Shown one piece after another: positions 1 to 62,486 of a stretch of DNA of 64,000 bases. Below the pieces are notes generated by a model. That model was not told the DNA's origin. It ran no database searches and was given only the letters and a program-made list of their open reading frames with translations. The DNA comes from a virus, in the IMG/VR virus record IMGVR_UViG_3300023242_000006, positions 5,476 through 69,475 of that record; one strand, written 5' to 3'. Each line of letters opens with the position of its first letter. The first letter of the stretch is position 1. A program made the translations under genes and the position numbers.

Positions 1-152
1 ACTTACTGAACTCCATACTGAACGACTTACTGAATGGTTTACTGAATCCTTTACTGAATATTTTACTGAATTATATACTGAATTATACACTGAATACCTT
101 ACTGACTTACTTATTGAATCGCTTACTTTATCTTTTATTGATTTACTTAGTT

Positions 153-374
153 TCATAGTTTTATTTTTGGTATTAAATTCCTTACTGAACCACTTACTGA
201 ATCCCTTACTGAATTCCAGACTGAATTACTTAGTGAATTACTTACTGAATTATACACTGAATACCATACTGACTTACTTATTGAATCGCTTACTTTATCT
301 TTTATCGATTTACCTAGTATCATAGTTTTATATTTGGTATTGAATTCCTTACTGAACCACTTACTGAAACCCAT
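153..374 (-). CDS. Repeat-array mini-protein (M-x-x-GKSIKDKV N-terminus, then xSVx tetrapeptide repeats, ending IPKIKL)
   Basis: ORF track. The N-terminus is conserved across array members, and the ATG lies in the conserved junction. Confidence 0.5.
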   Translation of the reverse strand: MGFSKWFSKEFNTKYKTMILGKSIKDKVSDSISKSVWYSVYNSVSNSLSNSVWNSVRDSVSGSVRNLIPKIKL

Positions 375-514
375 ACTGAATTACTTACAGAATCATATAC
401 TGAATCATTTACTTTATTACTTACAGAATAAAGTACTTTATCCCTTACTTTATTACTTACTGAATAATATACTGAAGCTCTTACGTTATCTTTTATTGAT
501 TTACTTAGTTTCAT
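320..514 (-). CDS. Repeat-array mini-protein paralog
   Basis: Same MKLSKSIKDNV..SV-repeat architecture. The 5' extension in the ORF track probably overcalls the start. Confidence 0.45.
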   Translation of the reverse strand: MKLSKSIKDNVRASVYYSVSNKVRDKVLYSVSNKVNDSVYDSVSNSVWVSVSGSVRNSIPNIKL

Positions 515-704
515 AGTTTATTTTTGGCATTAAATCCGTTACTGAATTCCTTACTGAATCACTTACTGAATCATGTACTGATTTAAATACTGAATCCCTT
601 ACTGAACGACTTACTGAATCCCTTACTGAATTCCAGACTGAATACCTTACTGAATTATATAGTGAATCCCTTACTTTATTTTTTATCGATTTACCTAGAA
701 TCAT
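501..704 (-). CDS. Repeat-array mini-protein paralog
   Basis: Begins MILGKSIKNKVRDS and carries SVxx repeats. Confidence 0.5.
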   Translation of the reverse strand: MILGKSIKNKVRDSLYNSVRYSVWNSVRDSVSRSVRDSVFKSVHDSVSDSVRNSVTDLMPKINYETK

Positions 705-708
705 AGTT

Positions 709-891
709 TTATTCTTTTATATTTGGTATTGAATCACTTACTGAATCATATACTGAATCCCTTACTGAATACCTTACTGAAACCCATACTGAAGCCCTTA
801 CAGAACCATGTACTGAATTATTTACTGAATTACTTACTGAATACCTTACTGAATCCTTTACTTTATCTTTTATTGATTTACCTATTATCAT
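709..891 (-). CDS. Repeat-array mini-protein paralog
   Basis: Begins MIIGKSIKDKVKDSVRYSV and ends IPNIKE. Confidence 0.5.
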   Translation of the reverse strand: MIIGKSIKDKVKDSVRYSVSNSVNNSVHGSVRASVWVSVRYSVRDSVYDSVSDSIPNIKE

Positions 892-1227
892 AGTTTTATT
901 CTTTTATTTTTGGTACTGAATCACCTACTGAACCCCATACTGAATCACTTACTGAAACCCATACTGAATCCCATACTGAATTATATACTGAATTACTTAC
1001 TGAATTATATACTGAATTACTTATTGAACTGTTTACTTTATCTTTTATCGATTTACCTAGCTTCATTGTTTTATTATTTTATATTTGGTACTGAATTCCT
1101 TACTGATTTCAGTACTGCATCACTTACTGAATACCATACTAAATTCCTTACTAAATTCCTTACTGAATTCCAGACTGAATCCCTTACTGAATTATATAGT
1201 GAATCCCTTACTTTATTTTTTATCGAT

Positions 1228-1515
1228 TTACCTAGTTTCATTGTTTATTTTTGACATTAAATCCCTTACTGAATTATATACTGAATCCCATACTGAATTC
1301 CTTACTTTATCACTTACTGAATTACTTACTGATTTAATCACTGAATCCCTTAATGAATACCTTACTGAACCCCTTACTGAATACCTTACTGAATACCTTA
1401 CTGAATACCATACTGAATCACTTACAGAACCATGTACTGAATTATTTACTGAATTACTTACTGAATACCTTACTGAATCCTTTACTTTATCTTTTATTGA
1501 TTTACCTATTATCAT
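1228..1515 (-). CDS. Repeat-array mini-protein paralog
   Basis: Begins MIIGKSIKDKVKDSV. It is longer because it has more 12-nt repeats. Confidence 0.5.
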   Translation of the reverse strand: MIIGKSIKDKVKDSVRYSVSNSVNNSVHGSVSDSVWYSVRYSVRYSVRGSVRYSLRDSVIKSVSNSVSDKVRNSVWDSVYNSVRDLMSKINNETR

Positions 1516-1730
1516 AGTTTTATATTTGGCGTTGAATTCCTTACTGATTTCATTATTAAATGATTCACTAAATGGTTTACCGAATAGATTATTGAATTAC
1601 TTACTGAATCTCTTACTGAATTCCTTACTGAATTCCTTACTGAATCCCTTACTGAATTCCTTACTGAATTCCTTACTGAACCCCTTATTGAACCCCTTAC
1701 TTTATCTTTTATTGGTTTACCTAGTTTCAT
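1512..1730 (-). CDS. Repeat-array mini-protein paralog
   Basis: Begins MKLGKPIKDKVRGS, with (SVRN)n repeats. Confidence 0.5.
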   Translation of the reverse strand: MKLGKPIKDKVRGSIRGSVRNSVRNSVRDSVRNSVRNSVRDSVSNSIIYSVNHLVNHLIMKSVRNSTPNIKL

Positions 1731-1766
1731 TGTTTATTTTTGGCATTAAATCCGTTACTGAATCCC

Positions 1767-1979
1767 TTACTGAATCCCTTCTGAATTACTTACTGAACAC
1801 CATACTGAATTACTTACTGAACTCCATACTGAATCACTTACTAAATCACGTACTGAATCCCATACTGAATTACTTACAGAATCATATACTGAATCATTTA
1901 CTTTATTACTTACTGAATACCTTGCTGAACCAAATACTGAATCCCTTACTTTATCTTTTATTGATTTACCTACTATCAT
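1767..1979 (-). CDS. Repeat-array mini-protein paralog
   Basis: Begins MIVGKSIKDKVRDSV. Confidence 0.5.
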   Translation of the reverse strand: MIVGKSIKDKVRDSVFGSARYSVSNKVNDSVYDSVSNSVWDSVRDLVSDSVWSSVSNSVWCSVSNSEGIQ

Positions 1980-1983
1980 AGTT

Positions 1984-2178
1984 TTATTCTTTTATTTTTG
2001 GTATTGAATTACTTACTGAACGACTTACTGAATTACTTACTGGAGTCCATACTGAATTCCTTACTGAATTCCTTACTGGAGTCCATACTGAATTCCTTAC
2101 TGAATACCATACTGAATCACTTACTGAATCTCTTACTGAACCCCTTACTTTATCTTTTATTGATTTACCTAGTATCAT
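1984..2178 (-). CDS. Repeat-array mini-protein paralog
   Basis: Begins MILGKSIKDKVRGSV and ends IPKIKE. Confidence 0.5.
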   Translation of the reverse strand: MILGKSIKDKVRGSVRDSVSDSVWYSVRNSVWTPVRNSVRNSVWTPVSNSVSRSVSNSIPKIKE

Positions 2179-2187
2179 TGTTTTAAT

Positions 2188-2232
2188 AAAAAAGTGCAGA
2201 AGGTTATTATTTTTCCCTCTGCACCTAATTTA
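2188..2232 (-). terminator. Rho-independent terminator (stem GGTGCAGAGGG/CCTTCTGCAC followed by a T-run on the minus strand)
   Basis: The inverted repeat gtgcagaagg...ccctctgcac reads on the minus strand as a hairpin followed by TTTTTTATT. It lies directly downstream of gene 2234..2479. Confidence 0.6.
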
Positions 2233-2233
2233 A

Positions 2234-2479
2234 TTAATCTTTTGACTTTTCGTAAACTGCTTTCAAAGGATTGTAAACAACTTGTGTTGTGATTAAACAA
2301 CTTTTCTTTTGTTCTAAAGTTGTGTGATTTTCTGTTGTTAAAACAGACTCACCCTCAACTAAGAACGTTTCATTTACTGCATCAATATCTACTACTTTTT
2401 TAGCGTTTTTGATGAAGTGACCACTTGTACTACTTGGTGCTACATTTACACCCACATTTAATTTTTCCATACTACTCAT
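2234..2479 (-). CDS. Hypothetical protein (unique insert inside the repeat array)
   Basis: Non-repetitive 81-aa ORF between array units, with its own terminator. Confidence 0.5.
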   Translation of the reverse strand: MSSMEKLNVGVNVAPSSTSGHFIKNAKKVVDIDAVNETFLVEGESVLTTENHTTLEQKKSCLITTQVVYNPLKAVYEKSKD

Positions 2480-2762
2480 ATTTATTGTTTAAAATTTTAC
2501 TGAATTACTTATTTTATTTTTAGTATTGAATTACTTACTGAATCCCTTACTTTATCTTTTATTTGTTTACCTAGTTTCATTGTTTATTTACCTAGTATCA
2601 TTATTTTATTTTTGGTATTGAATCATGTACTGAATCATATACTAAATCCCTTACTGAATCACTTACTGAACCCCATACTGAATCATATACTGAATCACTT
2701 ACTGAATTATATACTGAATCCCATACTGAATTACTTACTTTATCTTTTATCGATTTACCGAT
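2480..2762. repeat. Degenerate distal units of the same CTTACTGAAT array
   Basis: Junction motifs recur near 2560, 2590 and 2745 without an intact mini-gene ORF. Confidence 0.7.
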
Positions 2763-2763
2763 A

Positions 2764-3915
2764 TTAAAATTCATAAGTCATTAATTTGAAGTAATCGTTA
2801 CCCGATAAACTAGAGTAACGTTGAAGTTCATCATTACTAAATTCACCATTTTCTAATTTATAGGTAATATCATCATCAAATATAGTTGAAAATTTCTCAC
2901 CTTGTCTACTAATACTAACAATATTATTTTTTAAAATAGTAGGTACTCTGTATAAACTAGCGATAGCATCTTTAGCGGAGTCATAACTTGGCTCAACACC
3001 TAAAAAAAACATTCTATCTGTTGATGGGCAATAACACCTTACATATGCAATATTTACGTCATTTATTTGACCCTTAAATAGTGTGTAAACACCAATTCTG
3101 TTAGACCTAGTTGTACCTTCCAAATATTCATTTTTAGTATCATTCACAAATGAATCAACCTGTTTTAGATTATCTCGCATGAAGTCAAAAACAGCTTCTG
3201 TGCCGTCTCTACTTTCAATGTAAAGTAAAATCATTGACTTGGTTTCTTCGTTCTCTTCCTTAATAAAATCACTAAATGTATACTTTCTATTTTTCAACTT
3301 TAAAAATAAATCAGCATCAACATTTAAACCATTGATAAAATAGCAACCAGTACCATCATTAAATTCAATCGCAAAATCTTCTGTGTTGTGAGGCAATAAA
3401 TTTTCAGAAAGAATGTATTTAGGTGGTTGTACAGCGAAAACAACATTTTCAAATTCAAACGTTTCAAAAACATTTGACTCAATTAATGATTGGTACATAT
3501 TGAACTTTTCATCATTTAACACACCAATCTGTGTGAAATAATCATAAAACGAAATCCAACCAAAATTTGACCACCCAATGTATGAACTTTTCAGCTCTTT
3601 GTTTTCATCCATTTTTTTTAAAAAATCGGATTTTAATTTACTATTTTTATATTTTTCAAAAATAGTTGGGTATTCTGATACATCCATATTAAAATCCTTA
3701 AACATAGTTATTTTAATAATAGCATCAATTATCGAATCACAATAGATAACTTGTGGATTAGGTAAACTAACAAGGTTATTATATAACCAACTTATACCTG
3801 TTTCAAATTTTGATTTGTCAATACCCATTGAGCAATCATTGTAGGCTTTATTTATCCATTTGTCTCTTACTACCAATGTTAACGCCTCTTCTTGTTTTGT
3901 TAATTCTTCTTTCAT
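2764..3915 (-). CDS. Hypothetical protein (383 aa)
   Basis: Long ORF with no recognisable motif. Confidence 0.55.
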   Translation of the reverse strand: MKEELTKQEEALTLVVRDKWINKAYNDCSMGIDKSKFETGISWLYNNLVSLPNPQVIYCDSIIDAIIKITMFKDFNMDVSEYPTIFEKYKNSKLKSDFLKKMDENKELKSSYIGWSNFGWISFYDYFTQIGVLNDEKFNMYQSLIESNVFETFEFENVVFAVQPPKYILSENLLPHNTEDFAIEFNDGTGCYFINGLNVDADLFLKLKNRKYTFSDFIKEENEETKSMILLYIESRDGTEAVFDFMRDNLKQVDSFVNDTKNEYLEGTTRSNRIGVYTLFKGQINDVNIAYVRCYCPSTDRMFFLGVEPSYDSAKDAIASLYRVPTILKNNIVSISRQGEKFSTIFDDDITYKLENGEFSNDELQRYSSLSGNDYFKLMTYEF

Positions 3916-4588: not shown

Positions 4589-4648
4589 CTGCTTCCATGG
4601 TACAAAGGTACATATAATATTTCATATACGCAAATAAATTTTATATTT

Positions 4649-6634: not shown

Positions 6635-6690
6635 TACAAAGGTATGAAATAAAAATGACACTACCAAATGATAGTGTCACTTTTTTATTA
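6635..6690 (-). promoter_or_regulatory. Terminator-promoter cassette, copy 1: TACAAAGGTA promoter element next to the palindrome TGACACTAccaaatgaTAGTGTCA flanked by A/T runs
   Basis: Direct reading. Near-identical cassettes occur at 13732-13790 and 21155-21210. Confidence 0.6.
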
Positions 6691-6695: not shown

Positions 6696-7289
6696 TTATT
6701 TTAATTTAGCTTTTTTACTCTCATCAATCATTTTATCCAACATATCTAACCCTTCACCTATGTTTTTCAACTTATCAACACGGAAATCTGATAACTCCAA
6801 TCGTTTAAATGGTAAAATGAACTCTTTAACCAAATCATTGTGCTTGTCGTGTCTTCCCCAATCTTTCACGTAGCCATCGTACTTACCAGTAGTTTCTACG
6901 TGGTCTAGTGTATCTTTGCAGAATGTGTTAGCTTCTTTGTATTTGTGGTCGTAACCACCAACAAAACGTTCAGCCAATTCAAGACTAGACATATTGCTTC
7001 TGATATCTAACCCACATGAAATATTTTCAATAGCATTCAAATGCAAACAAATAATCAATCGATAGTCATAAGGTAAACTATCTTTAACAAGGATTTCTTT
7101 GATTTCTCTTTCAATCTCGTTTACACGTTGGATAAAGGCAGTAGCATTTTTCTTACTCAAACACCATACGTATTTATGGTAATGTGATGGAACATAGTCC
7201 AACCCAGTAACATAATCAATTTGGAAATACTTTCCTTTTTTTGATGCTTTAAATGATGTTAGCATAGTTTTTTTTATTTGATGAAACAA
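6696..7289 (-). CDS. Hypothetical protein (possible HD-type phosphohydrolase, weak)
   Basis: His/Asp-rich segments (HYHKY, RHDKHND). Motif assignment is uncertain. Confidence 0.35.
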   Translation of the reverse strand: MFHQIKKTMLTSFKASKKGKYFQIDYVTGLDYVPSHYHKYVWCLSKKNATAFIQRVNEIEREIKEILVKDSLPYDYRLIICLHLNAIENISCGLDIRSNMSSLELAERFVGGYDHKYKEANTFCKDTLDHVETTGKYDGYVKDWGRHDKHNDLVKEFILPFKRLELSDFRVDKLKNIGEGLDMLDKMIDESKKAKLK

Positions 7290-7305
7290 AGGTAAGGATA
7301 ATAAT

Positions 7306-7512
7306 TTACCTATGCAAATATTTTCTAATAAATTTTCTTTCTTTTTTATTTAGCACGAGAACGTAGTGTCTTCCACTACGTGTTTTATAGACTTGAAGGC
7401 GTTCTTTACCCTCATAGTACCATTCATCGGTGTAGCTATGTTCTTTTATTAGTAATTCGGGATAGCAAGAGAATAATAAAAAAGCGAACACTAACAGTAA
7501 AATGTTTTTCAT
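7306..7512 (-). CDS. Small secreted protein or lipoprotein
   Basis: Signal peptide LLLVFAFLLFSC. Confidence 0.4.
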   Translation of the reverse strand: MKNILLLVFAFLLFSCYPELLIKEHSYTDEWYYEGKERLQVYKTRSGRHYVLVLNKKERKFIRKYLHR

Positions 7513-9329: not shown

Positions 9330-9995
9330 TTACTTCTCATTATTTTTATTTTTAAGTTCAGATAAAAACCTTTCGATAACAGAACCTCTCGTATCTCCTT
9401 CTTGACGGTCAAACAACATAAAATCCAAAAGAATCTTTCCCAATTCATTTTCGTGATACATTTTAGAGTTGTTTTTAACATGTGGTAATACAACACCTCT
9501 TAAAGATTCTTCTGCTCTTTTTAACGCTTGTGGGAACATTGTTTTACCCTTAAACTTTTCCATTATCTCACTAATACTTTTAGCTTCACCAGTATCAATA
9601 ATAGCCATGTCTTCCAACTCACCACCATTATCTAAGTTAGGGCAACTTTGAATGCGGAACTCGACTTCTTTATCTATTTCAGCTTTGATTTGCCATTTAA
9701 CTTTCTTTGGACTAATATATCTGGATAGATTAGTTTTGGCTAATTCAGCAACGCATGCGTTAACTGATTCTGAAATCTCTGTGTGTAACACTTCAACTTC
9801 AACCAAGTCTTGATAAACTTCAATAACTATGACTTTGGTAAACACATTGTGTTTAACGGCATCACCAGTGTCGTTTTGGTTGAAGTAAGTTAAAACATCA
9901 TGGTAAACACCAATATCACCAACTTGAATATTTTTAATAGACTTTGTTTTTTTACCTAAAAAACTAAAAAACGGTTTTTGGTTATTACTTTGCAT
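9330..9995 (-). CDS. Hypothetical protein (221 aa)
   Basis: The promoter motif at 10016-10025 lies about 20 nt upstream. Confidence 0.55.
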   Translation of the reverse strand: MQSNNQKPFFSFLGKKTKSIKNIQVGDIGVYHDVLTYFNQNDTGDAVKHNVFTKVIVIEVYQDLVEVEVLHTEISESVNACVAELAKTNLSRYISPKKVKWQIKAEIDKEVEFRIQSCPNLDNGGELEDMAIIDTGEAKSISEIMEKFKGKTMFPQALKRAEESLRGVVLPHVKNNSKMYHENELGKILLDFMLFDRQEGDTRGSVIERFLSELKNKNNEK

Positions 9996-10205
9996 AGTTT
10001 GATTTTTTAATTATGACACAAAGGTAAATATAATAAATGATATATCCAAATTTTTACCAATTATTTTTAAATTATTTCACCTCTTTTAATTTCTTCTTCT
10101 CGACCCAAAAGTTCTAGGTCACTTTCAATCCAAGCTCTCACTTGTTTTTTGATGTAATCTTTACTCTCTAATTTCTTTGTTGTTGTAAGGTTTTTTTGTC
10201 ATAAT

Positions 10206-10848: not shown

Positions 10849-11232
10849 TTATCGGCAACTGCTACCGACACGTTCAAAATGAAACTTTCCATCCCATAAA
10901 GTGTGCTTAATTGACCCCATATTAATTGCTACTTGCATTTTCGTTTTGCTTTTAAATAAGTATTCAAGTTTTTCATTCAGCATTTTATTGAGCTGAATTC
11001 TATAACCTTCTAAATCTGTATGGCACTTGTAATTATTGCAATCTTTACAACTTGGGTTAAGGTTTTCCAACTCATTACTACCTCCAAAAACTTGTGGTTT
11101 AATATGGTCAACATTCCAGCCTTTGAGTAAATCAACTCCACAATAAGCACACTTACCATTGCACTTATCAAAGACTATTACTCTAATTTTGGCTTTTGAG
11201 TTCATTTTATTTTGATTTGTGAAGAAGGGCAT
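10849..11232 (-). CDS. HNH endonuclease
   Basis: CAYCGVDL...WNVDHIKPQVFGGSNELENLNPSCKDCNNYK is the classic HNH/McrA-type motif. Confidence 0.75.
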   Translation of the reverse strand: MPFFTNQNKMNSKAKIRVIVFDKCNGKCAYCGVDLLKGWNVDHIKPQVFGGSNELENLNPSCKDCNNYKCHTDLEGYRIQLNKMLNEKLEYLFKSKTKMQVAINMGSIKHTLWDGKFHFERVGSSCR

Positions 11233-11371
11233 CCGCTAACAAATGCTATACAATATGTCGGGTGACGTGCTTCGATTAAAAAATTGTGGTTAATTCAACT
11301 TTGGTGCTTCGTATTAACTTTTGCGGTAAAAACCGACACATCGTATAGCACCGATAAGGTTATATGCTATT

Positions 11372-11611
11372 TTAATAGACAGCACGTTTAACGAATCCGA
11401 AAATATCGACAGATGTTCTAACCATCATTTCTTTATCGTATTTTACACGAAACAAAATATTGTCTTTATATCTTTTTATTTTCATTGTTTTTGCGCATTT
11501 TTTAGAACATCTTGTTCTATTAATATTTGTTTCGTATTCAACGCCACAACATTCACATTTAGACTTTTTAAAGTCGATATTTCCTTTGTATTTATTTATT
11601 AAATATTTCAT
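11372..11611 (-). CDS. Zinc-ribbon small protein
   Basis: CECCGVEY...CSKKC. Confidence 0.4.
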   Translation of the reverse strand: MKYLINKYKGNIDFKKSKCECCGVEYETNINRTRCSKKCAKTMKIKRYKDNILFRVKYDKEMMVRTSVDIFGFVKRAVY

Positions 11612-11778
11612 TTTGTTTATAATTTAGGAAAGAAAAACAGCGTATAACAGCGTGTATAAAAAATGGCGGGTTCAGTGCTATTTAGAAACATTTGTGCTAT
11701 ATTCAACGCATTGCTTTCAAGTTAATTTTGTGCTTTAATTCCGCCACTTCTCATACACGCCACCCTTTAGTGGCAAAG

Positions 11779-12006
11779 CTAACCGATGTATTTCCTGACA
11801 AAGTATTGGTCACGATTACAAAACTCCGTTCTATGAGAATTTAGACCATCCCCATAAGCATCTGTTATTTGTTCAGCCTCTGTAAGTAAAAGGCTTTTAG
11901 CTTCATTAATCGCAATATTTATCACTCTATGATACAAAGGGTCATTATCCCATTTTTCTTTGGCTCCTTCGAGCCTTTTTATTAGTTGATTTAACGGAGT
12001 TTCCAT
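11779..12006 (-). CDS. Hypothetical small protein
   Basis: ORF of 75 aa. Confidence 0.4.
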   Translation of the reverse strand: METPLNQLIKRLEGAKEKWDNDPLYHRVINIAINEAKSLLLTEAEQITDAYGDGLNSHRTEFCNRDQYFVRKYIG

Positions 12007-12131
12007 TTCGTTTTTAAATTAAATTTAGTGCTGATAATCCGCCCAGCACATAACAGCGTGTATAAAAAATGGCGTTCGTAATTAATTTTTAAAAACGATA
12101 AACTTGCTATATATGGTATTTATATGATAGC

Positions 12132-12380
12132 TTAACGCCACTTGGTACTAAATTGAATACCTCCTTTTGTTTTTCTGCCATTTTTATATTCTTTTACAAT
12201 TATTGTAGGTCTTTCTAATGCTCTGCCACTAAATCCAGAAAGCCTATTTTTATAATTTAATTTTTGAACCCTAATTGCTTCTTTTTCAATTTCTTCTTTT
12301 GTTGCATCATCATGTATATCGAAGTATTCCCAGCCGTAAGAAGATTGTCCAAAATTTTGTGTGATTTGAAATTTTTTCAT
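12132..12380 (-). CDS. Hypothetical small protein
   Basis: ORF of 82 aa. Confidence 0.4.
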   Translation of the reverse strand: MKKFQITQNFGQSSYGWEYFDIHDDATKEEIEKEAIRVQKLNYKNRLSGFSGRALERPTIIVKEYKNGRKTKGGIQFSTKWR

Positions 12381-12448
12381 AATTTTGTTTTTTAATTTTT
12401 AAAAACTATAAACTTGCTATATCTGGTAGTTATAGTGCATTAATTTGC

Positions 12449-12688
12449 CTAACTATCTGTATGCCATTTGTGGCAAGGCTCACATAAATTGTCTCGGTAT
12501 TCTTTTGTAGGTTTGTCACAATCTCGGCAAACAAACGGCACAATAACAACGGGTATAGTTAATTGCTCTCTTTTGCCTTTTAAATAAGCCTCTTCCATTG
12601 CATCAAGTACATCGTCCCTTAATCTACTTTGTTCATTAAACCCATCTGTCTCTTCTTGTAATATACTTAGTAAGTTTGTTCTTGTCAT
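12449..12688 (-). CDS. Cys-rich small protein
   Basis: CRDCDKPTKEYRDNLCEPCHKW. Confidence 0.4.
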   Translation of the reverse strand: MTRTNLLSILQEETDGFNEQSRLRDDVLDAMEEAYLKGKREQLTIPVVIVPFVCRDCDKPTKEYRDNLCEPCHKWHTDS

Positions 12689-12744
12689 TTTAATTTAATT
12701 TAGTGTTATTAATCCGCAACTAACCATACCCAAAGCGTTAGCAA

Positions 12745-12951
12745 CTATTTAAAATTTGCTTTATAATCAGTTGTATCTATTTTAATCAAGTGGTAAGCCT
12801 CACTTGTTTTTCCATTGCCTTCGAGTCTATACATTACTCCATCTGTATCTTTTACTATTTTACCGTCTTTTTCGTAAGTGCATCCTACTAAAAACACAGT
12901 TGCTAACAATGTATAAAATGCATAGCTTAATTTCGTTCTTAAATTTTTCAT
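12745..12951 (-). CDS. Putative lipoprotein
   Basis: Lipobox LVGCTY. Confidence 0.4.
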   Translation of the reverse strand: MKNLRTKLSYAFYTLLATVFLVGCTYEKDGKIVKDTDGVMYRLEGNGKTSEAYHLIKIDTTDYKANFK

Positions 12952-13051
12952 TTGTTGTATTTTTAAAGTTTATTAATTAATTCAAAGTTTTGTGTTGTTT
13001 AGGTTGCTACGCACCTTATACAATCGTTATCACTCAGCTTAGAAGTAATAG

Positions 13052-13273
13052 CTAAAGAATTGCAATATATTTTTTAACTTCATTCCAATATTTAAAATTT
13101 AATCTATCACTATCATAAATATTTGGATTGTCGTTTATTATTTCTTCGACTGCAATTTGTGCATATTTTTTAGCCATTTCTAGTTCAACTATATGCTCAT
13201 CTTTGGTTTTTTCAAAAACATTTCCTCTATACATTTTGTTTGCTAATTCATTAGCTTTTTTAATTGGTGTCAT
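13052..13273 (-). CDS. Hypothetical small protein
   Basis: ORF of 73 aa. Confidence 0.4.
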   Translation of the reverse strand: MTPIKKANELANKMYRGNVFEKTKDEHIVELEMAKKYAQIAVEEIINDNPNIYDSDRLNFKYWNEVKKYIAIL

Positions 13274-13441
13274 AATATTTTTGTATTTAAAAGCCGAAGT
13301 GATAACATACGCTAACCGCTATTTAGGCTTTTGGTTTAATTTAATAATTGTTTTGTGTCTGTAAGTATTTGTAATAATCTGAAAATTTAGGCTTACTTTT
13401 CCCTAAACATCGTATAGCACCGATAAGGTTAGCGGTAATTT

Positions 13442-13729
13442 TTAGAACGCTTGAAGAATATAACCATTGTATAAGCGTTTTGTTTCAGCTAATTGACTAC
13501 GTTCGTCTTCTGTACATTCATTCCAATGTTCCGCTTCATTATCATTGTGTTTTTGGTCATATTTGTTGATAGGTACTTTGACAATAAGTGTTTTGTCTTT
13601 ATTAACAAACACACGTCTGGTCAATCCAGTGTTCTTGTAGGTAAAGGCTTCACCATTTACAAATATAACATCAGCTGTAGATTCTACGGTAGCCGTTTTA
13701 ATGTTAACTATGTGTTCTATTCTACTCAT
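13442..13729 (-). CDS. Hypothetical protein (start at MSRIEH, 2 nt downstream of the promoter motif)
   Basis: ORF 13442..13831 trimmed. The N-terminal extension in the track is a translation of the terminator-promoter cassette. Confidence 0.5.
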   Translation of the reverse strand: MSRIEHIVNIKTATVESTADVIFVNGEAFTYKNTGLTRRVFVNKDKTLIVKVPINKYDQKHNDNEAEHWNECTEDERSQLAETKRLYNGYILQAF

Positions 13730-13731
13730 GG

Positions 13732-13790
13732 TACAAAGGTATAAAATAAAAATGACACTACCAAAAGATAATGTCATTATTTTTAATTTA
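13732..13790 (-). promoter_or_regulatory. Terminator-promoter cassette, copy 2
   Basis: TACAAAGGTAtaaaataaaaaTGACACTAccaaaagaTAATGTCAttattttt. Confidence 0.6.
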
Positions 13791-13802
13791 TTTTCAGTAA
13801 TA

Positions 13803-14111
13803 TTAAAAAAACAAGTTAATAAACCACGCAAATAACAATACTAACCATGGTGTGAGTAATAAATTACCCCACATTTTGCCGTTGTCTTCATATTCACTCT
13901 TAATCGATACACCTAAACTAGGTTTTATTGCTGTTAAAAACAACGAAAAACCTACAAACTGCAACACTGTGAAATGTGGTGCATCAGCAAATGCCGATAA
14001 GATAAACCAACCATACAATGTGTGTGCGATAAAACCCCAGACAAATGCGTTGTAACATAAGATACCTAATGTTAAACCAATTACACCAATCAATACTAAT
14101 AAACTTTCCAT
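13803..14111 (-). CDS. Membrane protein
   Basis: Multiple TM segments. Confidence 0.45.
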   Translation of the reverse strand: MESLLVLIGVIGLTLGILCYNAFVWGFIAHTLYGWFILSAFADAPHFTVLQFVGFSLFLTAIKPSLGVSIKSEYEDNGKMWGNLLLTPWLVLLFAWFINLFF

Positions 14112-14154
14112 TTTATTTTTTTTTTTAATATTTATACTACAAAGGTAAATAAAA

Positions 14155-14427
14155 CTATTGTCTTTTCCAAATTTTTCGAGCAGAATTACTCTTTGGTGAT
14201 AAAATATTTCTTATCACACCCATATTGTTACCCCATAAAACTAGGAACAATCCTAAGCACACCCAACGGTTGGTATGGTAACCAATGATAAAAAAACCAA
14301 CAACTGATATGCAGAACTCAAACAGCAAATAAAAAAACTTTGCTTTTGAAATTTTCAAATCTAATTCAGCTTTTTTTCTCTTTTCTTCTTCCAACAAGTA
14401 TTCCTTGTATTTATCTAATGAACTCAT
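14155..14427 (-). CDS. Membrane protein
   Basis: TM helices. Confidence 0.4.
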   Translation of the reverse strand: MSSLDKYKEYLLEEEKRKKAELDLKISKAKFFYLLFEFCISVVGFFIIGYHTNRWVCLGLFLVLWGNNMGVIRNILSPKSNSARKIWKRQ

Positions 14428-14768
14428 ATCTCAAAGTTTTGGTTATTCACACTATCCTGTGTGGTTTCGTAAACCTGTGATTTAATTTTGTTGTAACCAT
14501 TGGTGTCAGTTTCTCGTTCGTAGTTAATCAACAAACGCATTGAATGTAGAATATCATAACCCATTTTGTTAATCTTGTTACTAAACTTAACACCGTTACC
14601 AGTAACAGTCATTTTCACGATAAACTCACCACGAGTATGACTAGTCCATTGCTCACCATTTGAATGAAACAATGATATTACTCTACCATTTTTGGTAGGT
14701 TTGTCAGTAATACTGTATTCGTGAAGTCCTTCATCAAATACGTGGAATGTTCTTTTTACCTTAGACAT
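14424..14768 (-). CDS. Hypothetical protein
   Basis: ORF of 114 aa. Confidence 0.45.
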   Translation of the reverse strand: MSKVKRTFHVFDEGLHEYSITDKPTKNGRVISLFHSNGEQWTSHTRGEFIVKMTVTGNGVKFSNKINKMGYDILHSMRLLINYERETDTNGYNKIKSQVYETTQDSVNNQNFEI

Positions 14769-15027
14769 TTTTTGAACTTAATAGTGTTTGTAATTCGTTA
14801 AAGTCAGAATCACGTAGCTTTTCATCCTCATAATACGTATAGCTACTAAAAGATTGTGGGGTTTTTTCTTCAAGTTCAATTGAAAAACCACTTACATCAC
14901 CTTTACTAATTTTACCAAATTTGGTAGGGTCTTTAAGGATTTTTTTTAAATCGTTTTTAAGGGCGATATTTAATATGTTTATTTTCATATAGCAAAGATA
15001 TTAAAATTATTTATAATAAACAAATTA

Positions 15028-15345
15028 TTACCATTTTATTTTTACTTCAAGGTCAAAAGTTATTGGTTCCGTGGTAATCAAGTAACCAATTCTATTTATA
15101 AAGTGATAACCACTACAATAGTACATACAAGCATTAACTTCCCCACTATCGTTTATTTCTTCTTCACAATCACTCTCTATGATTGTTATTACTCGGTTTT
15201 CTTTTGCCATTTGCAGAACAAAGTCAATTTCATCACCGTAGGTTTCAAACATAGACCCATTAAATGATGCGTTGGTGTCAATATGATTTTGAACTAATTC
15301 AAATTGTTCATCAAATTGTTCTTCTGTAAGTTGTAATGGTGTCAT
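15028..15345 (-). CDS. Hypothetical acidic protein
   Basis: ORF of 105 aa. Confidence 0.45.
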   Translation of the reverse strand: MTPLQLTEEQFDEQFELVQNHIDTNASFNGSMFETYGDEIDFVLQMAKENRVITIIESDCEEEINDSGEVNACMYYCSGYHFINRIGYLITTEPITFDLEVKIKW

Positions 15346-15574
15346 ACCAATTTTTTTTAGTTAATTTTTCATACTTGGTAATCATACTATTCATATTAAA
15401 ATATATGATACTAAAGATTACAGCACCAATAGGTATAATAATCCAATCATAACTAGCATTTGGGTTTTTACTTGGTATAAAAATAAATGGTAGTGTAGCT
15501 AACCAACACAAAATGGAACACCATTTCATTTGCATCCTAAAATTTTTCGCCTCTTTTAAGGTTTCTTCTGACAT
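15311..15574 (-). CDS. Membrane protein
   Basis: TM helices. Confidence 0.4.
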   Translation of the reverse strand: MSEETLKEAKNFRMQMKWCSILCWLATLPFIFIPSKNPNASYDWIIIPIGAVIFSIIYFNMNSMITKYEKLTKKNWYDTITTYRRTI

Positions 15575-15585
15575 ACTAATTTTTT

Positions 15586-15936
15586 TTAAATGAACCCTAA
15601 ATATCTACTTGGTTTATCGAAGCCATCCAATTCCATGTATTCTTTTGCTCTTTCTTCTGAAGTTCCCTCGGCAATGTATTGAGCCGTTTTAGCCACTTTA
15701 AAACCAGACATAAGCGTTTGTGCCACTTTCTTGCTATCTTCGTTTCTAGCGTCTGTATGGTACTCATCAGATGCCATGTGTTCGATAGTCTGCAACATCA
15801 AACCAAAGGCTGATTGTTGTAGTGTTCTATGTTGCCATGAAAATATTTCGACAAACTCTTTATTCTTCTCTTTGTTACTAGAGTTAACGAAATCAGTTAT
15901 TGCATCAGCTAATTCTTTTGGTGATAATCTTAACAT
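15586..15936 (-). CDS. Hypothetical protein
   Basis: ORF of 116 aa. Promoter motif at 15962. Confidence 0.5.
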   Translation of the reverse strand: MLRLSPKELADAITDFVNSSNKEKNKEFVEIFSWQHRTLQQSAFGLMLQTIEHMASDEYHTDARNEDSKKVAQTLMSGFKVAKTAQYIAEGTSEERAKEYMELDGFDKPSRYLGFI

Positions 15937-15995
15937 AATAATGTTTTTAATTGATTAGATAACAAAGGTAAGCAAAATATTTTAAAGCGCCAAAT

Positions 15996-16286
15996 TTAAA
16001 ATGGAGAATCTTCTATTATTTCTAAAATAAATTCTTCTTTTATAGCTATAGCATTAAGTTTTAACTTTTTAGCGTTAATTCTTTTAGAGTTTATAATATA
16101 AATAATTGAACCTAAATGATATTTTGGGGATAATTCTTTTAGATTAAAAGATTTTTCACCTATATTACAAGGTAATTGATAAATTTTAGAACCAGAACAA
16201 ACAATGTTAGGAAAACCATTAAATTTATATGAAATAACCATAATTTTGATTGTATGGTTATCTACTTGTTTTTCAATTAGTTTCAT
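15996..16286 (-). CDS. Hypothetical protein
   Basis: ORF of 96 aa. Confidence 0.4.
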   Translation of the reverse strand: MKLIEKQVDNHTIKIMVISYKFNGFPNIVCSGSKIYQLPCNIGEKSFNLKELSPKYHLGSIIYIINSKRINAKKLKLNAIAIKEEFILEIIEDSPF

Positions 16287-16327
16287 ATATTATACAATTA
16301 AAAGTTCGTATATCTAGTAGTTAGCGG

Positions 16328-16825
16328 TCAGGCTATGACAGACACCACGTTTTCAAAATTAACATAAGTATGACCTTTCCCTTTTTCACAACCTTGACCT
16401 TCGTGCCAAAAACCATACTGCATAGTTTCAGGGTATAGTTTGACAATTTCGCCTTCAAATTCACCTTTACGAACCAATTTTGCTATTACTTTTTGACCTT
16501 CAATCAAATCAAGTTTAAACTCATTTTCAGCAACCCATTTTTTAATAAATGTTTCTTGAACGTTGCTTCTATCGTAAGAAACGCTATCAAGAATTTCTAC
16601 TAATTCGCTATCAGGAGCAAAACCTTCGTCCTCAAACTCTTTTGCAAGTTCATAGCCATCATCGTTGCTGTGCCATTGAAGTATTTTTTCAGCAGTTTCA
16701 ATACAATCTTCTAATGGTGTTTCATCGTTACACCATTCGTTTACTTGCTTTCCTACAATTTTAGCAAGTTCTTTTACCATTTCATCGTTCCAAGTTGGAC
16801 GAGTTGTTGTTAATGTTTCTGACAT
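16328..16825 (-). CDS. Hypothetical protein (165 aa)
   Basis: ORF. Confidence 0.5.
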   Translation of the reverse strand: MSETLTTTRPTWNDEMVKELAKIVGKQVNEWCNDETPLEDCIETAEKILQWHSNDDGYELAKEFEDEGFAPDSELVEILDSVSYDRSNVQETFIKKWVAENEFKLDLIEGQKVIAKLVRKGEFEGEIVKLYPETMQYGFWHEGQGCEKGKGHTYVNFENVVSVIA

Positions 16826-17359
16826 TTTCTTGTTATTTATTTGTGGACTTCTAAAAGCGGAGAAGCCCGAACCGCTAACAGCACCTACAATAAATTGGGG
16901 GTTCTGTGGTAACTTGTATCTTTGTTCTTCGCATCAAGTGTAGTGGTTCAATGAATTTTTCTGCTCCGAAATCCCCAACTTCTTGTAGCTGCATTCCGTT
17001 ATGTGTAAGTGTTACATTCATACTTCTAATCAACAATTTTCGCATCTTTTAATATACTTTCTCTAAAATATAATTCGTTTCCATGACATAACTTCTCAGT
17101 TTTCCAATCAAAAAGTTCCCTTTGCCCTCCCAGTCTTTTTATCTCAGGAAATTCTTGATTCAAATCCTCTATTCTTTTTTTTAGAAAATCAATTCGTTCA
17201 TCAAATTGACATTTAATCTCTTTTGTAATTGTAATACCTTTCATCTTATTTAATATTTTAGTTTAATTAACCCCAGTAGTTATATGCAATGCTACGTTTG
17301 TGCTTCGTATTAAGTTTCGTGGTTATAATCTTTTTGTTTTATTTTTCTATCACACAAAA

Positions 17360-17929
17360 TTAAGAAATCATTTTAATTTGTTTTGAATTTAATACAACAT
17401 ACACATTAGATACGTTTGCATCTTTACCATACCCAACACCATCATGTACATTTTTAATAATAACCCCATCAAAACCATATTTAATTGCTATTTCAGGTGT
17501 TCTATTTGTTGTTATCCTATCAACCCCATGTTTTAACAAATACTTAATCGCATCTTCACTATTTTCTATACCTTCTACTGAAATATAATCCCAAGATTCA
17601 AAATTAGCATCCACTATTAATGGTTTAACTATTTTAAGATATACATCATATATTATTTTTTCACCATTTTCTTTTTTAGAACGATGTGTTGCATATTTAT
17701 CAGCTAGATTAATATCAGTAGTAAAATATGCATATTGATTTTCACTTGTTCTGAATGAATCAAATTTATTATTTGTGCCATGATAAACTATTAATGGATT
17801 CCCATTTTTATCAACAACTTTACTATTACCAAACCATTCTCGAAAATTATCATTCAAATTGTTATTAATTGTTTTCTGTTCATTTAAATATTCACGTATA
17901 GTCGTTGCTATAAATTTCCTTAGTTCCAT
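17360..17929 (-). CDS. Hypothetical protein (189 aa). I suspect an ADP-ribosyltransferase-like fold but cannot confirm it
   Basis: VYHGT..F...YFTTD..ESWDY..EGIENSE segments. This is a weak impression only. Confidence 0.3.
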   Translation of the reverse strand: MELRKFIATTIREYLNEQKTINNNLNDNFREWFGNSKVVDKNGNPLIVYHGTNNKFDSFRTSENQYAYFTTDINLADKYATHRSKKENGEKIIYDVYLKIVKPLIVDANFESWDYISVEGIENSEDAIKYLLKHGVDRITTNRTPEIAIKYGFDGVIIKNVHDGVGYGKDANVSNVYVVLNSKQIKMIS

Positions 17930-18066
17930 AATGATAAATAGTTTAATCTATATATAAATAGTCACTTTTTAATTTTCCACCCAGAAAAATAAAACAAAAG
18001 GGTTCAGTTCTCCGATTAAACATTCCACCTTAATAATCCACACCTACACATAATAAGGTGTATAAT

Positions 18067-18570: not shown

Positions 18571-18649
18571 ATTAAATTGGTTTTAGCGTTAATGACGGTA
18601 CAAAGGTAAGTATAATATTTTAAACTACCAAGTAATTCCTGGTTTATTT

Positions 18650-18958: not shown

Positions 18959-19201
18959 AATTTCTATTGTTTATTTATTATACTACAAAGGTATGTAATT
19001 AATTCCATGTATCCAAATTTACACATAAAAAAAATGGATGGCTTTCGCCACCCACTCTAAAACGTAAGAACCACCAAACGTTTTAATCACTAACACAAAC
19101 CTTTGTTACCATAGCAACAGCGATTTCGCATATTTATGTTAGTAGATAAGTTAACATGAAACAAAAATAAATCTATTTAAAACTTTTTTATAATTAATTG
19201 A

Positions 19202-35408: not shown

Positions 35409-35505
35409 ACTATCACTATGTCGCTCGGCAAAGTTAAACGTGATAGAAAGGATTATAACCGTCTGAAAGTTTGCCGACCTTCATGTTGCTATTCCCCAAT
35501 TTTGT

Positions 35506-62414: not shown

Positions 62415-62486
62415 ATTTGATTTTATTTTTATAGTACAAAGGTACAAAAAAAAATGCAGATAAAACAAATTATCTAAAAGTTTTTT

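What the first reader, a model, noticed from the sequence alone, without database searches (positions are those of the whole stretch)
1..2762. Higher-order tandem array of about 13 paralogous mini-genes built from 12-nt CTTACTGAAT microrepeats
Each unit of about 200 bp carries a conserved junction holding the ATG and a strongly conserved N-terminus M-I-L-G-K-S-I-K-D-K-V, then a variable number of 12-nt repeats encoding xSVx tetrapeptides, then a conserved C-terminus IPNIK. Only the minus-strand frame has conserved starts and ends, so these look like real genes whose repeat copy number is free to expand and contract. That is a hypervariable protein family or a contingency locus. A unique gene with its own terminator (2234..2479) is embedded in the array. 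I know of no described counterpart.
Basis: seen in the sequence. Interest (0 to 1): 0.75.

Follow-up and report, generated by a model that had tools for sequence, protein, structure and literature searches.

The report
Tandem mini-gene array in a phage
A phage of Bacteroidota carries a long tandem array of tiny genes (about 13 in the window, 43 in a full-length contig), each predicted to encode one helix built from a four-residue repeat; the repeat matches a module found inside relatives of the neighbouring gene, the array changes size quickly between strains, and its function is unknown.

Summary
Window 1..2774 is a two-level repeat: 12-nt units (core TACTGAAT: 79 copies here, 1 in the other 61 kb) grouped into ~200-nt units. 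Each unit holds a minus-strand ORF: MxLGKSIKDKV-(xSVx)n-SIPNIK.

The window shows only the proximal third. Another contig of the same phage reads through 8.7 kb and 43 mini-ORFs.

The repeat has a counterpart. The upstream 383-aa gene belongs to the DUF6745 family. Many relatives carry the same tetrapeptide repeat internally, with different codons in different lineages; this phage's copy lacks it.

The "unique embedded gene" is the conserved ~80-aa partner of DUF6745 genes.

Related phages have 0, 1, 2, 4-5 or 8+ mini-genes. Otherwise identical assemblies differ only by 24- or 36-nt in-frame indels.

Points for real genes:
- Invariant ATG.
- Stop avoidance.
- One relative's mini-gene has its own Bacteroidota-type promoter.

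Points against:
- No purifying selection between copies.
- The bulk of the array follows a strong terminator with no recognisable promoter.

Best reading (0.6): a fast-evolving, tandemly amplified family of small helical proteins. It is not a classical contingency locus, because 12-nt steps stay in frame. Function is unknown.

The parts
1..2774 (-). The part of the mini-gene array that lies in the window (proximal ~1/3 of the 8.7-kb array seen in L006 11142..19862).
   Evidence: TRF period 12. 79 TACTGAAT cores against 1 elsewhere. Base-for-base match to L006 apart from one 24-nt indel. Full extent.
4603..4634 (-). Bacteroidota-type promoter (TTTG-N20-TACCTTTG). It is the last one on the coding strand before the array and probably drives the 222-aa gene, the DUF6745 gene, mini-gene 1 and the partner gene.
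   Evidence: Two-box consensus: 25 matches in the window against 5.1 expected, 20 on the minus strand. The same site is L006 9282..9313. The next sense-strand site is L006 19902..19933, after the array.
2764..3915 (-). 383-aa DUF6745-family gene without the internal tetrapeptide repeat. Its longer homologues carry (xSVx)n or (xNVx)n between the N- and C-terminal domains.
2601..2774 (-). Mini-gene 1 (57 aa, MNFNIGKSIKDKV...). Its ATG overlaps the last codons of the DUF6745 gene by 11 nt. It lies upstream of the terminator, inside the promoter-driven unit.
   Evidence: The 94%-identical strain L001 has a 99-aa version at the same place.
2509..2580 (-). Remnant mini-ORF (23 aa, MKLGKQIKDKVRDSVSNSILKIK), with a further stub (MILGK*) just upstream at about 2581..2600.
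   Evidence: L006 11336..11407.
2234..2479 (-). Conserved ~80-aa partner of DUF6745 genes (81 aa from the first ATG; gene callers use the second ATG, giving 78 aa). It is not part of the repeat family.
   Evidence: A homologue sits just downstream of the DUF6745 gene in essentially all 40+ loci, at 46-100% identity. 434 homologues, no Pfam family or name.
2186..2226 (-). Intrinsic terminator after the partner gene: 12-bp stem, 11-nt loop and a U6 tail. The first distal mini-gene's ATG is ~8-15 nt further on.
   Evidence: Fold -18.3 kcal/mol, z -5.0, 0 of 200 shuffles as stable. The same order (hairpin plus T-run, then mini-genes within 15-30 nt) is visible in L002 and L008, read from the sequences, not folded.
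1984..2178 (-). Mini-gene (64 aa, MILGKSIKDKVRGSV...SIPKIKE).
   Evidence: AF2 predicts a single helix, residues 7-58, pLDDT 80.
1767..1979 (-). Mini-gene (70 aa). An 11-nt repeat spacing shifts the frame near the C-terminus (...SNSEGIQ*).
   Evidence: (the single 11-nt spacing).
1512..1730 (-). Mini-gene (72 aa here, 64 aa in L006). It contains the polymorphic 24 nt at 1646..1669, which is two 12-mers.
1228..1515 (-). Mini-gene (95 aa). Its start overlaps the upstream stop (ATGA) and its end overlaps the next start by 14 nt.
1074..1241 (-). Mini-gene (55 aa).
896..1066 (-). Mini-gene (56 aa).
709..891 (-). Mini-gene (60 aa).
501..704 (-). Mini-gene (67 aa).
320..514 (-). Mini-gene (64 aa).
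153..323 (-). Mini-gene (56 aa from the conserved MILGKS start). The ORF listing extends it to 374 from an upstream out-of-register ATG.
   Evidence: L006 13569..13739.
1..156 (-). Mini-gene cut by the window edge (MKLSKSIKDKVSDSISKSV...). It is complete in L006 13736..13930 (64 aa).

Best explanation
The locus is a tandemly amplified, fast-evolving family of small protein-coding genes.

What each gene encodes. Each mini-gene encodes a 41-104 aa protein. It has a short conserved lead-in (M-x-[LI]-G-[KN]-S-[IV]), a variable number of x-S-V-x tetrapeptides, and a short conserved tail. It is predicted to form one long alpha-helix.

Origin (inferred). The repeat matches the internal repeat module of DUF6745-family proteins, and the lead-ins resemble each other. 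The most economical reading is that it became a free-standing gene in a phage clade whose own DUF6745 protein lacks the repeat.

How the array changes. It varies at two levels:
- 12-nt units are gained or lost. This is shown: the 24- and 36-nt indels are the only differences between otherwise identical contigs.
- Whole ~200-nt units differ in number. This is shown: 0, 1, 2, 4-5, 8+ or 43 units in related phages. Replication slippage and unequal recombination are the inferred mechanisms.
- Within an array the copies are homogenised at the DNA level (one codon pair for S-V), which is concerted evolution.

Expression (inferred). The genes are packed at -14 to +20 nt, often with ATGA overlaps, which fits translation by coupling or reinitiation on a polycistronic RNA. 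The first mini-gene belongs to the promoter-driven DUF6745/partner unit. The 41 distal ones would be reached by read-through of the partner gene's terminator or from an unrecognised phage promoter.

Function. Not shown. The variable positions are dominated by R/S/W/Y and D/N/G/Y beside an invariant S-V stripe, and copy number is unstable. The most likely role is an accessory, dosage- or diversity-dependent host-interaction function, not a core replication or virion function.
For: 1. The repeat and ORF anatomy are confirmed. There are 43 ORFs in 8.7 kb, all co-oriented with the flanking genes.
2. The frame is identified by homology. A profile of the window's mini-proteins hits 1884 representative proteins, E down to 1e-55. 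The 150 listed are mostly 370-600 aa, and several sampled ones match PF20530. Repeat-bearing DUF6745 relatives include P0091, P0080 and P0072.
3. Selection acts on the peptide across lineages. The fixed dipeptide uses AAT-GTT, AAC-GTC, AAT-GTC, TCA-GTT or TCA-GTA in different lineages, but one pair within each. P0122's Ala/Arg/Gly/Pro-rich sequence suggests a high-GC source, which would mean different codons again (inference from composition).
4. Stops are avoided in the S-V frame. At the codon after Val, 0 stops are seen against 10.5 expected (P about 2e-5). At the Ser slot, none of ~22-26 single-step variants of TCA is TAA or TGA (P about 0.002-0.004), and about half are synonymous against 33% expected. 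The other two sense frames are closed, and the antisense frames contain some stops.
5. The ATG is invariant in 41 of 41 units while adjacent bases vary in up to 23 of 41.
6. The family and its N-terminal signature recur in diverged phages: L002, L010, L057, L067, L069, L072, P0217 and L085.
7. In L069 the mini-genes are interleaved singly with ordinary genes. One has its own consensus Bacteroidota promoter ending 20 nt before the ATG. That consensus is 5-fold enriched in the window.
8. The units are old. Mean pairwise identity is 70% and the maximum is 91%, yet 39 of 41 keep the full frame.
9. Two independent assemblies agree base for base over 2.8 kb of array.
10. AF2 predicts a single helix with pLDDT 80.
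Against: - No expression or proteomic data exist for this phage.
- Among paralogues the N-terminal codons show no purifying selection: 19 synonymous against 102 non-synonymous differences, with 23% synonymous expected.
- Across mini-gene lineages the DNA itself is unusually uniform (GGT for Gly, TCA-GTA for Ser-Val everywhere). So DNA-level homogenisation, or a DNA-level constraint, cannot be separated from peptide selection within this family.
- 12-nt slippage preserves the frame automatically, and the junction carries stops in all frames. Part of the ORF regularity therefore comes for free.
- The 41 distal units start right after a strong intrinsic terminator. No host-type promoter lies on their strand until after the array.
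- The 5-unit array of strain L001 could be an assembly collapse instead of a true difference.
- The proposed function is conjecture.
Confidence: 0.6

Rival explanations
1. Silent satellite. A fragment of a repeat-bearing gene landed in the untranscribed gap between a terminator and the next promoter, then expanded by slippage and unequal recombination. The ORFs are by-products of a 12-nt unit and a junction that is copied with its ATG and stops. Most distal units are never expressed.
For: The bulk of the array lies between a strong terminator and the next sense promoter, with none inside it. There is no purifying selection among paralogues. Codons are uniform, which shows DNA-level homogenisation. 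Copy number swings from 0 to 43 among relatives, so no particular number is required.
Against: Units average only 70% identity, yet 39 of 41 keep the frame, the ATG never varies, and stop codons one substitution away are absent. Relatives keep single copies with their own promoter among ordinary genes. A phage with limited packaging capacity would have to carry 8.7 kb of inert DNA. The terminator-then-mini-genes order is kept in three lineages at 60-70% protein identity.
Confidence: 0.2
2. DNA-level element. About 700 in-phase copies of ATTCAGTA, all in one orientation, act as a binding platform for a phage or host DNA-binding protein (iteron-like origin, partition or packaging site, or a decoy). 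On this reading the ORFs are incidental.
For: The octamer is perfectly uniform across lineages whose flanking proteins are only 60-70% identical. Orientation is strict. A 1.3-kb ORF-poor region adjoins the array.
Against: The same peptide repeat is written with other codons in the DUF6745 proteins. In L069 the repeat occurs as short isolated genes, not as a platform. Some relatives lack the array altogether. GC skew does not switch at the array. The variable tetranucleotide avoids stops in one frame.
Confidence: 0.06
3. RiPP-like system. The mini-proteins are precursor peptides with a conserved leader and a variable multi-core region. The DUF6745 protein (invariant C-Y-C-P-S-T-D-R and R-Q-G-E motifs) and its ~80-aa partner modify them.
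For: A conserved N-terminal lead-in is followed by a hypervariable body, in many tandem copies next to a conserved two-gene module. The DUF6745 alignment has invariant Cys, Asp and Arg residues. Phage RiPP clusters are discussed in the literature (PMC11118758; title and abstract only, listed).
Against: Most DUF6745/partner loci have no mini-genes. In most relatives the repeat sits inside the DUF6745 protein itself. No RiPP enzyme, protease or transporter domain was found. L069 mini-genes are scattered away from any such module.
Confidence: 0.05
4. Assembly artefact. Short-read assemblers expanded or mis-joined a much shorter repeat.
For: Many contigs of this family break at the repeat. L001 shows only 5 units where L006 shows 43.
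Against: The window's source and L006 come from separate records and agree base for base over 2776 nt apart from one 24-nt indel. No two units exceed 91% identity, so the units are distinguishable at k = 141. Five contigs of the relative agree.
Confidence: 0.04
5. The plus strand is the coding or transcribed strand. Each junction carries a Bacteroidota -7-like box (TAttTTTG) on the plus strand, followed by an LLNxLLN ORF.
For: 11 antisense TAnnTTTG boxes in the window and 35 in L006, one per junction. Two antisense frames are nearly stop-free.
Against: The box is the reverse complement of the P-K-I codons. It is absent from the arrays of L008 and L010 and nearly absent from L002. No full two-box promoter occurs in the array. 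The antisense ORFs have only TTG starts and some internal stops. They have no homologues, whereas the S-V frame does. All neighbouring genes are on the minus strand.
Confidence: 0.03

Closest known systems
Internal tetrapeptide-repeat module of DUF6745 (Pfam PF20530) family proteins
   Same: Same period-4 motif: x-[S/N]-V-x, with R/W/G/S and D/N/A at the variable positions. The lead-in is similar (KLGASV against MKLGKSI). The mini-protein profile matches these proteins at E down to 1e-55. The array sits next to a DUF6745 gene.
   Different: There the repeat is one run inside a 370-600 aa protein, between two folded domains. Here it is free-standing, with its own start and stop, and amplified up to 43 times, while the adjacent DUF6745 protein has lost the run. 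The family has no published function.
Genomic accordions: tandem gene amplification in large DNA viruses (poxvirus K3L, Elde et al. 2012, from my own knowledge; the term is also used for giant viruses in PMC5871332, listed)
   Same: Whole-gene tandem duplication. Copy number differs between close relatives. Expansion and contraction by recombination.
   Different: Accordion copies are recent and nearly identical. Here units average 70% identity and each also varies internally by 12-nt steps. No selective agent is known.
Simple-sequence contingency loci of bacteria and phages (Moxon et al., from my own knowledge)
   Same: Short tandem repeats inside coding sequence whose number changes faster than point mutations accumulate.
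   Different: The unit is 12 nt, so changes alter protein length and not the reading frame. There is no on/off switch, and the repeats are not in a promoter spacer.
Domain tandem-repeat expansion in Bacteroidota phages, e.g. BACON repeats of crAssphage (PMC6949934; title and abstract only, listed)
   Same: A repeat hotspot in phages of the same host phylum, evolving by duplication.
   Different: BACON repeats are ~80-aa folded domains within one long protein. Here the units are separate genes made of 4-aa repeats.

Membership tests
DUF6745 (PF20530) family, for the neighbouring gene 2764..3915 | Match to the Pfam model at or above its gathering score | tested here: inconclusive
   The window protein itself scores only 12 bits (E 0.13, cut-off 27). 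Its homologues at 55-60% identity carry a precomputed PF20530 annotation. P0122, found through the repeat profile, scores 185 bits. Membership by transitive homology is secure. The direct hit is below threshold.
xSVx tetrapeptide-repeat module, as in DUF6745 proteins | Period of four residues with fixed S/N-V and variable flanks, recognisable by profile search | tested here: met
   A profile of 11 window mini-proteins finds 1884 proteins at E <= 1e-3 and 291 at <= 1e-10. The repeat composition is listed.
xSVx tetrapeptide-repeat module, as in DUF6745 proteins | Embedded between the N-terminal and C-terminal DUF6745 domains | tested here: not met
   The mini-proteins consist of the repeat alone, 41-104 aa. 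The adjacent DUF6745 protein has a non-repeat linker at that position.
Contingency locus (phase-variable simple-sequence repeat) | Repeat number varies between closely related genomes | tested here: met
   A 24-nt indel is the only difference between the window and L006 in the shared array. A 36-nt indel is the only difference in L003 against four sister contigs. Assembly error is not excluded.
Contingency locus (phase-variable simple-sequence repeat) | Repeat changes shift the reading frame or promoter spacing, giving reversible on/off expression | tested here: not met
   The unit is 12 nt. 116 of ~118 within-unit spacings are multiples of 12. Both observed polymorphisms are in frame.
Genomic accordion / adaptive gene amplification | Tandem copies of a complete gene with copy number differing among close relatives | tested here: met
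   43 units in L006, 5 in the 94%-identical strain L001, 2 in the 70% relative, 0 next to the module in L014.
Genomic accordion / adaptive gene amplification | Copies nearly identical (recent amplification) and tied to a known selective pressure | tested here: not met
   Mean pairwise unit identity is 0.70 and the maximum is 0.91. The selective pressure cannot be tested here.
RiPP precursor-peptide array | Adjacent recognisable modifying enzyme, protease or transporter | tested here: not met
   No Pfam, NCBIfam, PHROG or PADLOC family for the neighbours. The DUF6745 fold has no solved relative.
Iteron-type origin or DNA-binding array | Repeats associated with a replication initiator, an AT-rich unwinding element or a skew switch | tested here: not met
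   No GC-skew switch at the array. No initiator gene identified nearby. Protein binding is not testable with these tools.
Any curated protein repeat family (pentapeptide and others) | Significant hit of a mini-protein to a Pfam, PHROG or NCBIfam model | tested here: not met
   Only sub-threshold, low-complexity hits. No tblastn hit in 50,697 phage records.

The most novel reading that the evidence does not exclude
The array is a self-diversifying library of single-helix binder proteins, a phage counter-defence or host-manipulation arsenal. Slippage of 12-nt units and unequal recombination between units would keep producing new lengths and new combinations of R/S/W/Y and D/N/G/Y surface residues beside an invariant S-V stripe. 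Terminator read-through would set the dose. This would be a recombination-based route to protein diversification in phages, distinct from diversity-generating retroelements.
Probability: 0.15. Interest if true: 0.85.

Novelty: new variant of a known kind. Interest (0 to 1): 0.6.

Why it matters
Phage genomes are compact, so 8.7 kb spent on 43 versions of one tiny gene calls for an explanation.

- If the mini-proteins are made, the locus is a natural example of nested-repeat evolution: a repeat inside a gene inside an array. It generates protein length and surface diversity faster than point mutation.
- It gives a first handle on the xSVx module and the DUF6745/partner gene pair. These occur in hundreds of uncultured phages and bacteria, and I found no literature on them.
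- The locus explains why assemblies of these phages break here.
- It offers a simple strain-typing marker.
- If the array proves silent, it would be a rare case of satellite-like DNA persisting in a phage.

Tried and rejected
- Megablast and tblastn of the flanks, the DUF6745 protein, the partner and a mini-protein against 50,697 phage records gave no match.
- The word-indexed homology search with a 60-aa mini-protein gave one weak hit only. The index probably handles such repeats badly; the exhaustive HMM search worked.
- Pfam, PHROGs, NCBIfam and PADLOC scans of the mini-proteins, partner and neighbours gave nothing above threshold.
- Literature searches for DUF6745, for the repeat strings and for analogous phage arrays found nothing specific.
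- tRNA and Rfam scans of the distal flank found nothing.
- The sigma-70 promoter scan was uninformative for a Bacteroidota host, and the simple terminator scan missed the hairpin because its loop is 11 nt.
- A dN/dS comparison of the orthologous single mini-gene in L014 and L015 failed. The region is identical over 268 nt while the neighbouring gene differs by 13%, which indicates mosaic exchange.
- The first Ser-slot count was contaminated by out-of-phase anchors and was redone.
- One long recoded or frameshifted polyprotein was rejected. Units sit in all three frames (lengths mod 3 = 1, 2, 0 in 23, 13 and 5 units), and the genome uses standard stops in its long genes.
- The antisense promoter idea was rejected as a by-product of the P-K-I codons.
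- The bacterial genome scan with the DNA repeat gave scattered, unrelated hits with no mini-gene signature.

Full report
**1. The observation**

The first 2.8 kb of the window is a nested tandem repeat.
- Tandem Repeats Finder reports a 12-nt period with ~180 copies over 1..2140 and again over 2619..2739. It also reports periods of 167 and 175 nt.
- The core octamer TACTGAAT occurs 79 times in 1..2800, once in the other 61 kb, and never in the opposite orientation. 106 successive spacings are exactly 12 nt.
- Thirteen conserved junctions divide the 12-mers into units of roughly 170-290 nt.
- On the minus strand each unit is an ORF with three parts: M-[IK]-[LI]-G-K-S-I-K-D-K-V, then x-S-V-x repeats, then S-[IV]-P-[NK]-I-K. 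The stop overlaps the next ATG (ATGA) or lies 4-12 nt before it.

- The array is cut by the window edge.
- Two plus-strand frames are also nearly open and give regular LLNx ORFs with TTG starts.
- The first mini-gene overlaps the upstream gene, so the array extends to 2774.

**2. Genome setting**

The window is ~30% G+C, and almost every ORF is on the minus strand.

Its genes fit a large phage of Bacteroidota:
- a 1052-aa protein with a type IX secretion sorting domain;
- an RNase R-like protein;
- NAPRTase and an NMNAT/NUDIX protein;
- AAA ATPases.

The two-box Bacteroidota promoter consensus (TTTG-N18-22-TAnnTTTG) occurs 25 times against 5.1 expected, with 20 matches on the coding strand. 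Nothing similar exists among 50,697 deposited phage records.

**3. The full array**

The 383-aa protein encoded just upstream (2764..3915) occurs identically on a 60.4-kb contig, L006.
- The window and L006 are identical over 2776 nt of array, apart from one 24-nt indel of two 12-mers at window 1646..1669.
- L006 continues. The array runs from 11142 to 19862 (8.7 kb), with 277 exact cores and 43 mini-ORFs of 23-104 aa, packed at -14 to +20 nt.
- The 41 units beyond the terminator are 131-319 nt long. They average 70% pairwise identity with a maximum of 91%. There is no regular higher-order period beyond one two-unit block repeated at offset 23.
- That divergence explains how a k = 141 assembly could cross the array. 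Together with the agreement of two records, it argues against an artefact.
- Other contigs do break at the array.

**4. What the repeat is**

The upstream protein has more than 438 homologues, many annotated as DUF6745 (PF20530).
- The longer homologues carry an internal run of the same tetrapeptide between the N-terminal and C-terminal domains. Examples are DSVRDSVWGSVSGSV... and a DNVRANV... variant, with up to ~65 repeats. The window's copy has a non-repeat linker there.
- A profile of the window's mini-proteins, run against 1.84 billion representative proteins, finds 1884 hits. The listed hits are mostly 370-600 aa. They include P0122, whose amino-acid composition suggests a high-GC bacterium, and a few other architectures. 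Free-standing small hits are rare; one is P0217, 58 aa, MKLGKSIKDKV...LIPKIK.
- Within each lineage the fixed dipeptide uses a single codon pair, but the pair differs between lineages: AAT-GTT, AAC-GTC, AAT-GTC, TCA-GTT, TCA-GTA.
- The window's ordinary genes use TCA for only 28% of Ser and GTA for 31% of Val.

This is the signature of concerted evolution within an array combined with conservation of the peptide across lineages. It identifies S-V as the biological reading frame of the repeat.

The mini-gene lead-in (M-K-L-G-K-S-I) resembles the lead-in to the internal repeat (K-L-G-A-S-V in P0080 and P0072). This suggests the mini-genes derive from that module.

**5. The embedded gene**

The 81-aa ORF (2234..2479) is not unique.
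- A homologue at 46-100% identity lies just downstream of the DUF6745 gene in essentially all 40+ loci examined.
- It has 434 database relatives and no family assignment.
- DUF6745 plus this partner is therefore a conserved two-gene module.
- In this phage one mini-gene and a remnant sit between the two genes. The bulk of the array follows the partner's terminator, a 12-bp stem at -18.3 kcal/mol, z = -5.

**6. Comparative variation**

| Locus | Relation to the window's phage | Mini-genes |
|---|---|---|
| L006 | same phage | 43 |
| L001 / L011 | 94% nucleotide identity, partner protein identical | 2 (99 and 69 aa) before the partner, 3 after, then the same distal flank as L006 |
| L002-L005, L013 | DUF6745 protein 70% identical | 2 after the partner and a hairpin; the five contigs differ only by one 36-nt deletion in L003 |
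| L008-L010 | 60% identical | at least 3; contigs end in the array |
| L014 / L015 | 62% identical | none after the partner; one degenerate 100-aa member 1 kb upstream |
| L057, L067, L072 | found by DNA pattern | 4-5 in tandem |
| L069 | found by DNA pattern | at least 8, scattered among ordinary genes |

- All of these share the signature M-x-[LI]-G-[KN].
- Bacterial genomes scanned with the DNA repeat show no such arrays.

**7. Are the mini-ORFs genes?**

For:
- They lie on the same strand as the genome's other genes.
- The ATG is invariant in 41 of 41 units, while neighbouring bases vary in up to 23.
- The S-V frame has no stop in 293 strict repeats, against 10.5 expected from position-wise composition (P about 2e-5). 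The other sense frames are closed and the antisense frames carry a few stops.
- At the Ser slot, none of ~22-26 single-step variants of TCA is TAA or TGA, although two of the nine possible steps give stops (P about 0.002-0.004). About half the variants are synonymous.
- 39 of 41 diverged units keep the full frame.
- Single-copy members in L069 sit in normal gene slots. One lies 20 nt downstream of a consensus promoter of the same kind that drives its neighbours.
- The first mini-gene of the window overlaps the stop of the DUF6745 gene and lies inside a promoter-driven unit.

Against:
- Paralogues show no purifying selection on their N-terminal residues (19 synonymous against 102 non-synonymous).
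- Codons are uniform across mini-gene lineages.
- 12-nt slippage preserves the frame without selection.
- The 41 distal units begin right after a strong terminator. No host-type promoter lies on their strand until after the array, at L006 19902..19933.

I conclude that the family consists of real genes (about 0.8). Expression of the distal bulk of this particular array is plausible but unproven.

**8. Structure and function**

- AlphaFold2 predicts the 64-aa mini-protein as a single helix, residues 7-58, pLDDT 80. A repeat sequence with a shallow alignment makes this only indicative.
- The variable positions are dominated by R, S, W, Y after Val, and by D, N, G, Y before Ser.
- The DUF6745 protein folds confidently (pLDDT 88.7) but has no solved structural relative.
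- No paper mentions the family.
- Function is therefore open. I favour an accessory, host-interaction role in which dose or diversity matters. This is inference from copy-number instability and surface variability only.

**9. Rivals**

- A silent satellite in a terminator-to-promoter gap (0.2) is the serious alternative.
- A DNA-level binding array (0.06), RiPP-like precursors (0.05), an assembly artefact (0.04) and plus-strand coding (0.03) are each contradicted by specific results given in the report sections.
- The antisense TAnnTTTG box in each junction is the reverse complement of the P-K-I codons. It is missing from the arrays of L008 and L010.

**10. Comparison with known systems, and verdict**

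- The locus works like a genomic accordion crossed with an in-frame simple-sequence repeat. It fails the defining tests of both.
  - Against a classical accordion: the copies are old and diverged.
  - Against a contingency locus: there is no frame switching.
- Its repeat belongs to the uncharacterised xSVx module of DUF6745 proteins, but the free-standing, amplified form is not described anywhere I could search.
- I rate it a new variant of a known kind. It is of moderate to high interest, and expression data would be decisive.

Noticed in passing
window 4603-4634, 6637-6668, 7287-7318, 10019-10050, 13734-13765 and 15 more on the minus strand: The Bacteroidota two-box promoter consensus (TTTG-N18-22-TAnnTTTG, mostly with TACCTTTG) occurs 25 times against 5.1 expected, 20 on the coding strand. 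It supports the host phylum and maps probable host-RNA-polymerase-dependent transcription units.
   Followed up: partly
L001 4506-6030 (insertion relative to window ~9685): The 94%-identical strain carries a 391-aa IS605-family OrfB/TnpB (Cas12f-like) gene on the opposite strand. The window's phage lacks it; the flanks align on either side of window 9683-9686.
   Followed up: no
L006 19863-21152 and L001 12570-13683: The array is bounded distally by at least ~1.3 kb (up to the end of the fetched locus) with no convincing ORF, no tRNA and no Rfam hit. This stretch has several consensus promoters and small AAATGCGAAAAA repeats. It could be a non-coding RNA or a regulatory region.
   Followed up: partly
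window junctions at 162, 329, 519, 718, 905, 1080, 1246, 1521, 1735, 1993, 2607 (plus strand): Each junction has a TAnnTTTG box antisense to the mini-genes. It is the reverse complement of CCAAAAATA (Pro-Lys-Ile). It is absent from the arrays of L008 and L010, so it is probably a by-product.
   Followed up: yes
L022-L025, L028, L030, L032, L034, L038, L039, L044, L045: Many viral contigs end exactly where the internal repeat of their DUF6745 gene would begin (matches start at query residue ~110 near a contig edge). This repeat routinely breaks assemblies.
   Followed up: no
P0191, P0211, P0168 (proteins): The same xSVx repeat is fused to a different short C-terminal domain (...FPNIxKWxxV...PSFDGxxWRLHxGxDA...) with no Pfam match. 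In P0186 it is fused to a subtilase. The repeat is a portable module.
   Followed up: no
L014 4632-4937 and L015 4628-4930: A single degenerate mini-gene (100-101 aa) is identical over 268 nt between two phages whose DUF6745 genes differ at 13% of sites. This indicates recent mosaic exchange of this segment.
   Followed up: partly
window 32398-32471, 35127-35225, 35505-35602 (minus strand): Three tRNA genes. Two of the matches span 98-99 nt against a 71-position model, suggesting a long variable arm or an insertion.
   Followed up: no
window 25137-28295 (minus strand): A 1052-aa protein with DUF4874 and DUF4832 domains and a type IX secretion C-terminal sorting domain. This is a host-like secreted protein encoded by the phage.
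   Followed up: no
window 39850-41877, 58916-59827, 61416-62468 (minus strand): An RNase R/II-like exoribonuclease (RNB, cold-shock and S1 domains), plus an NAD-salvage pair (NAPRTase; cytidylyltransferase-like domain fused to NUDIX).
   Followed up: no
L051, L053, L070, L071, L082 (giant-virus MAG contigs): The same DNA triple-core pattern occurs in contigs labelled as giant-virus MAGs. There it encodes D-S-V-rich runs (e.g. VDSVDDSVDDSV) without the mini-gene signature. This is probably convergent codon use.
   Followed up: partly
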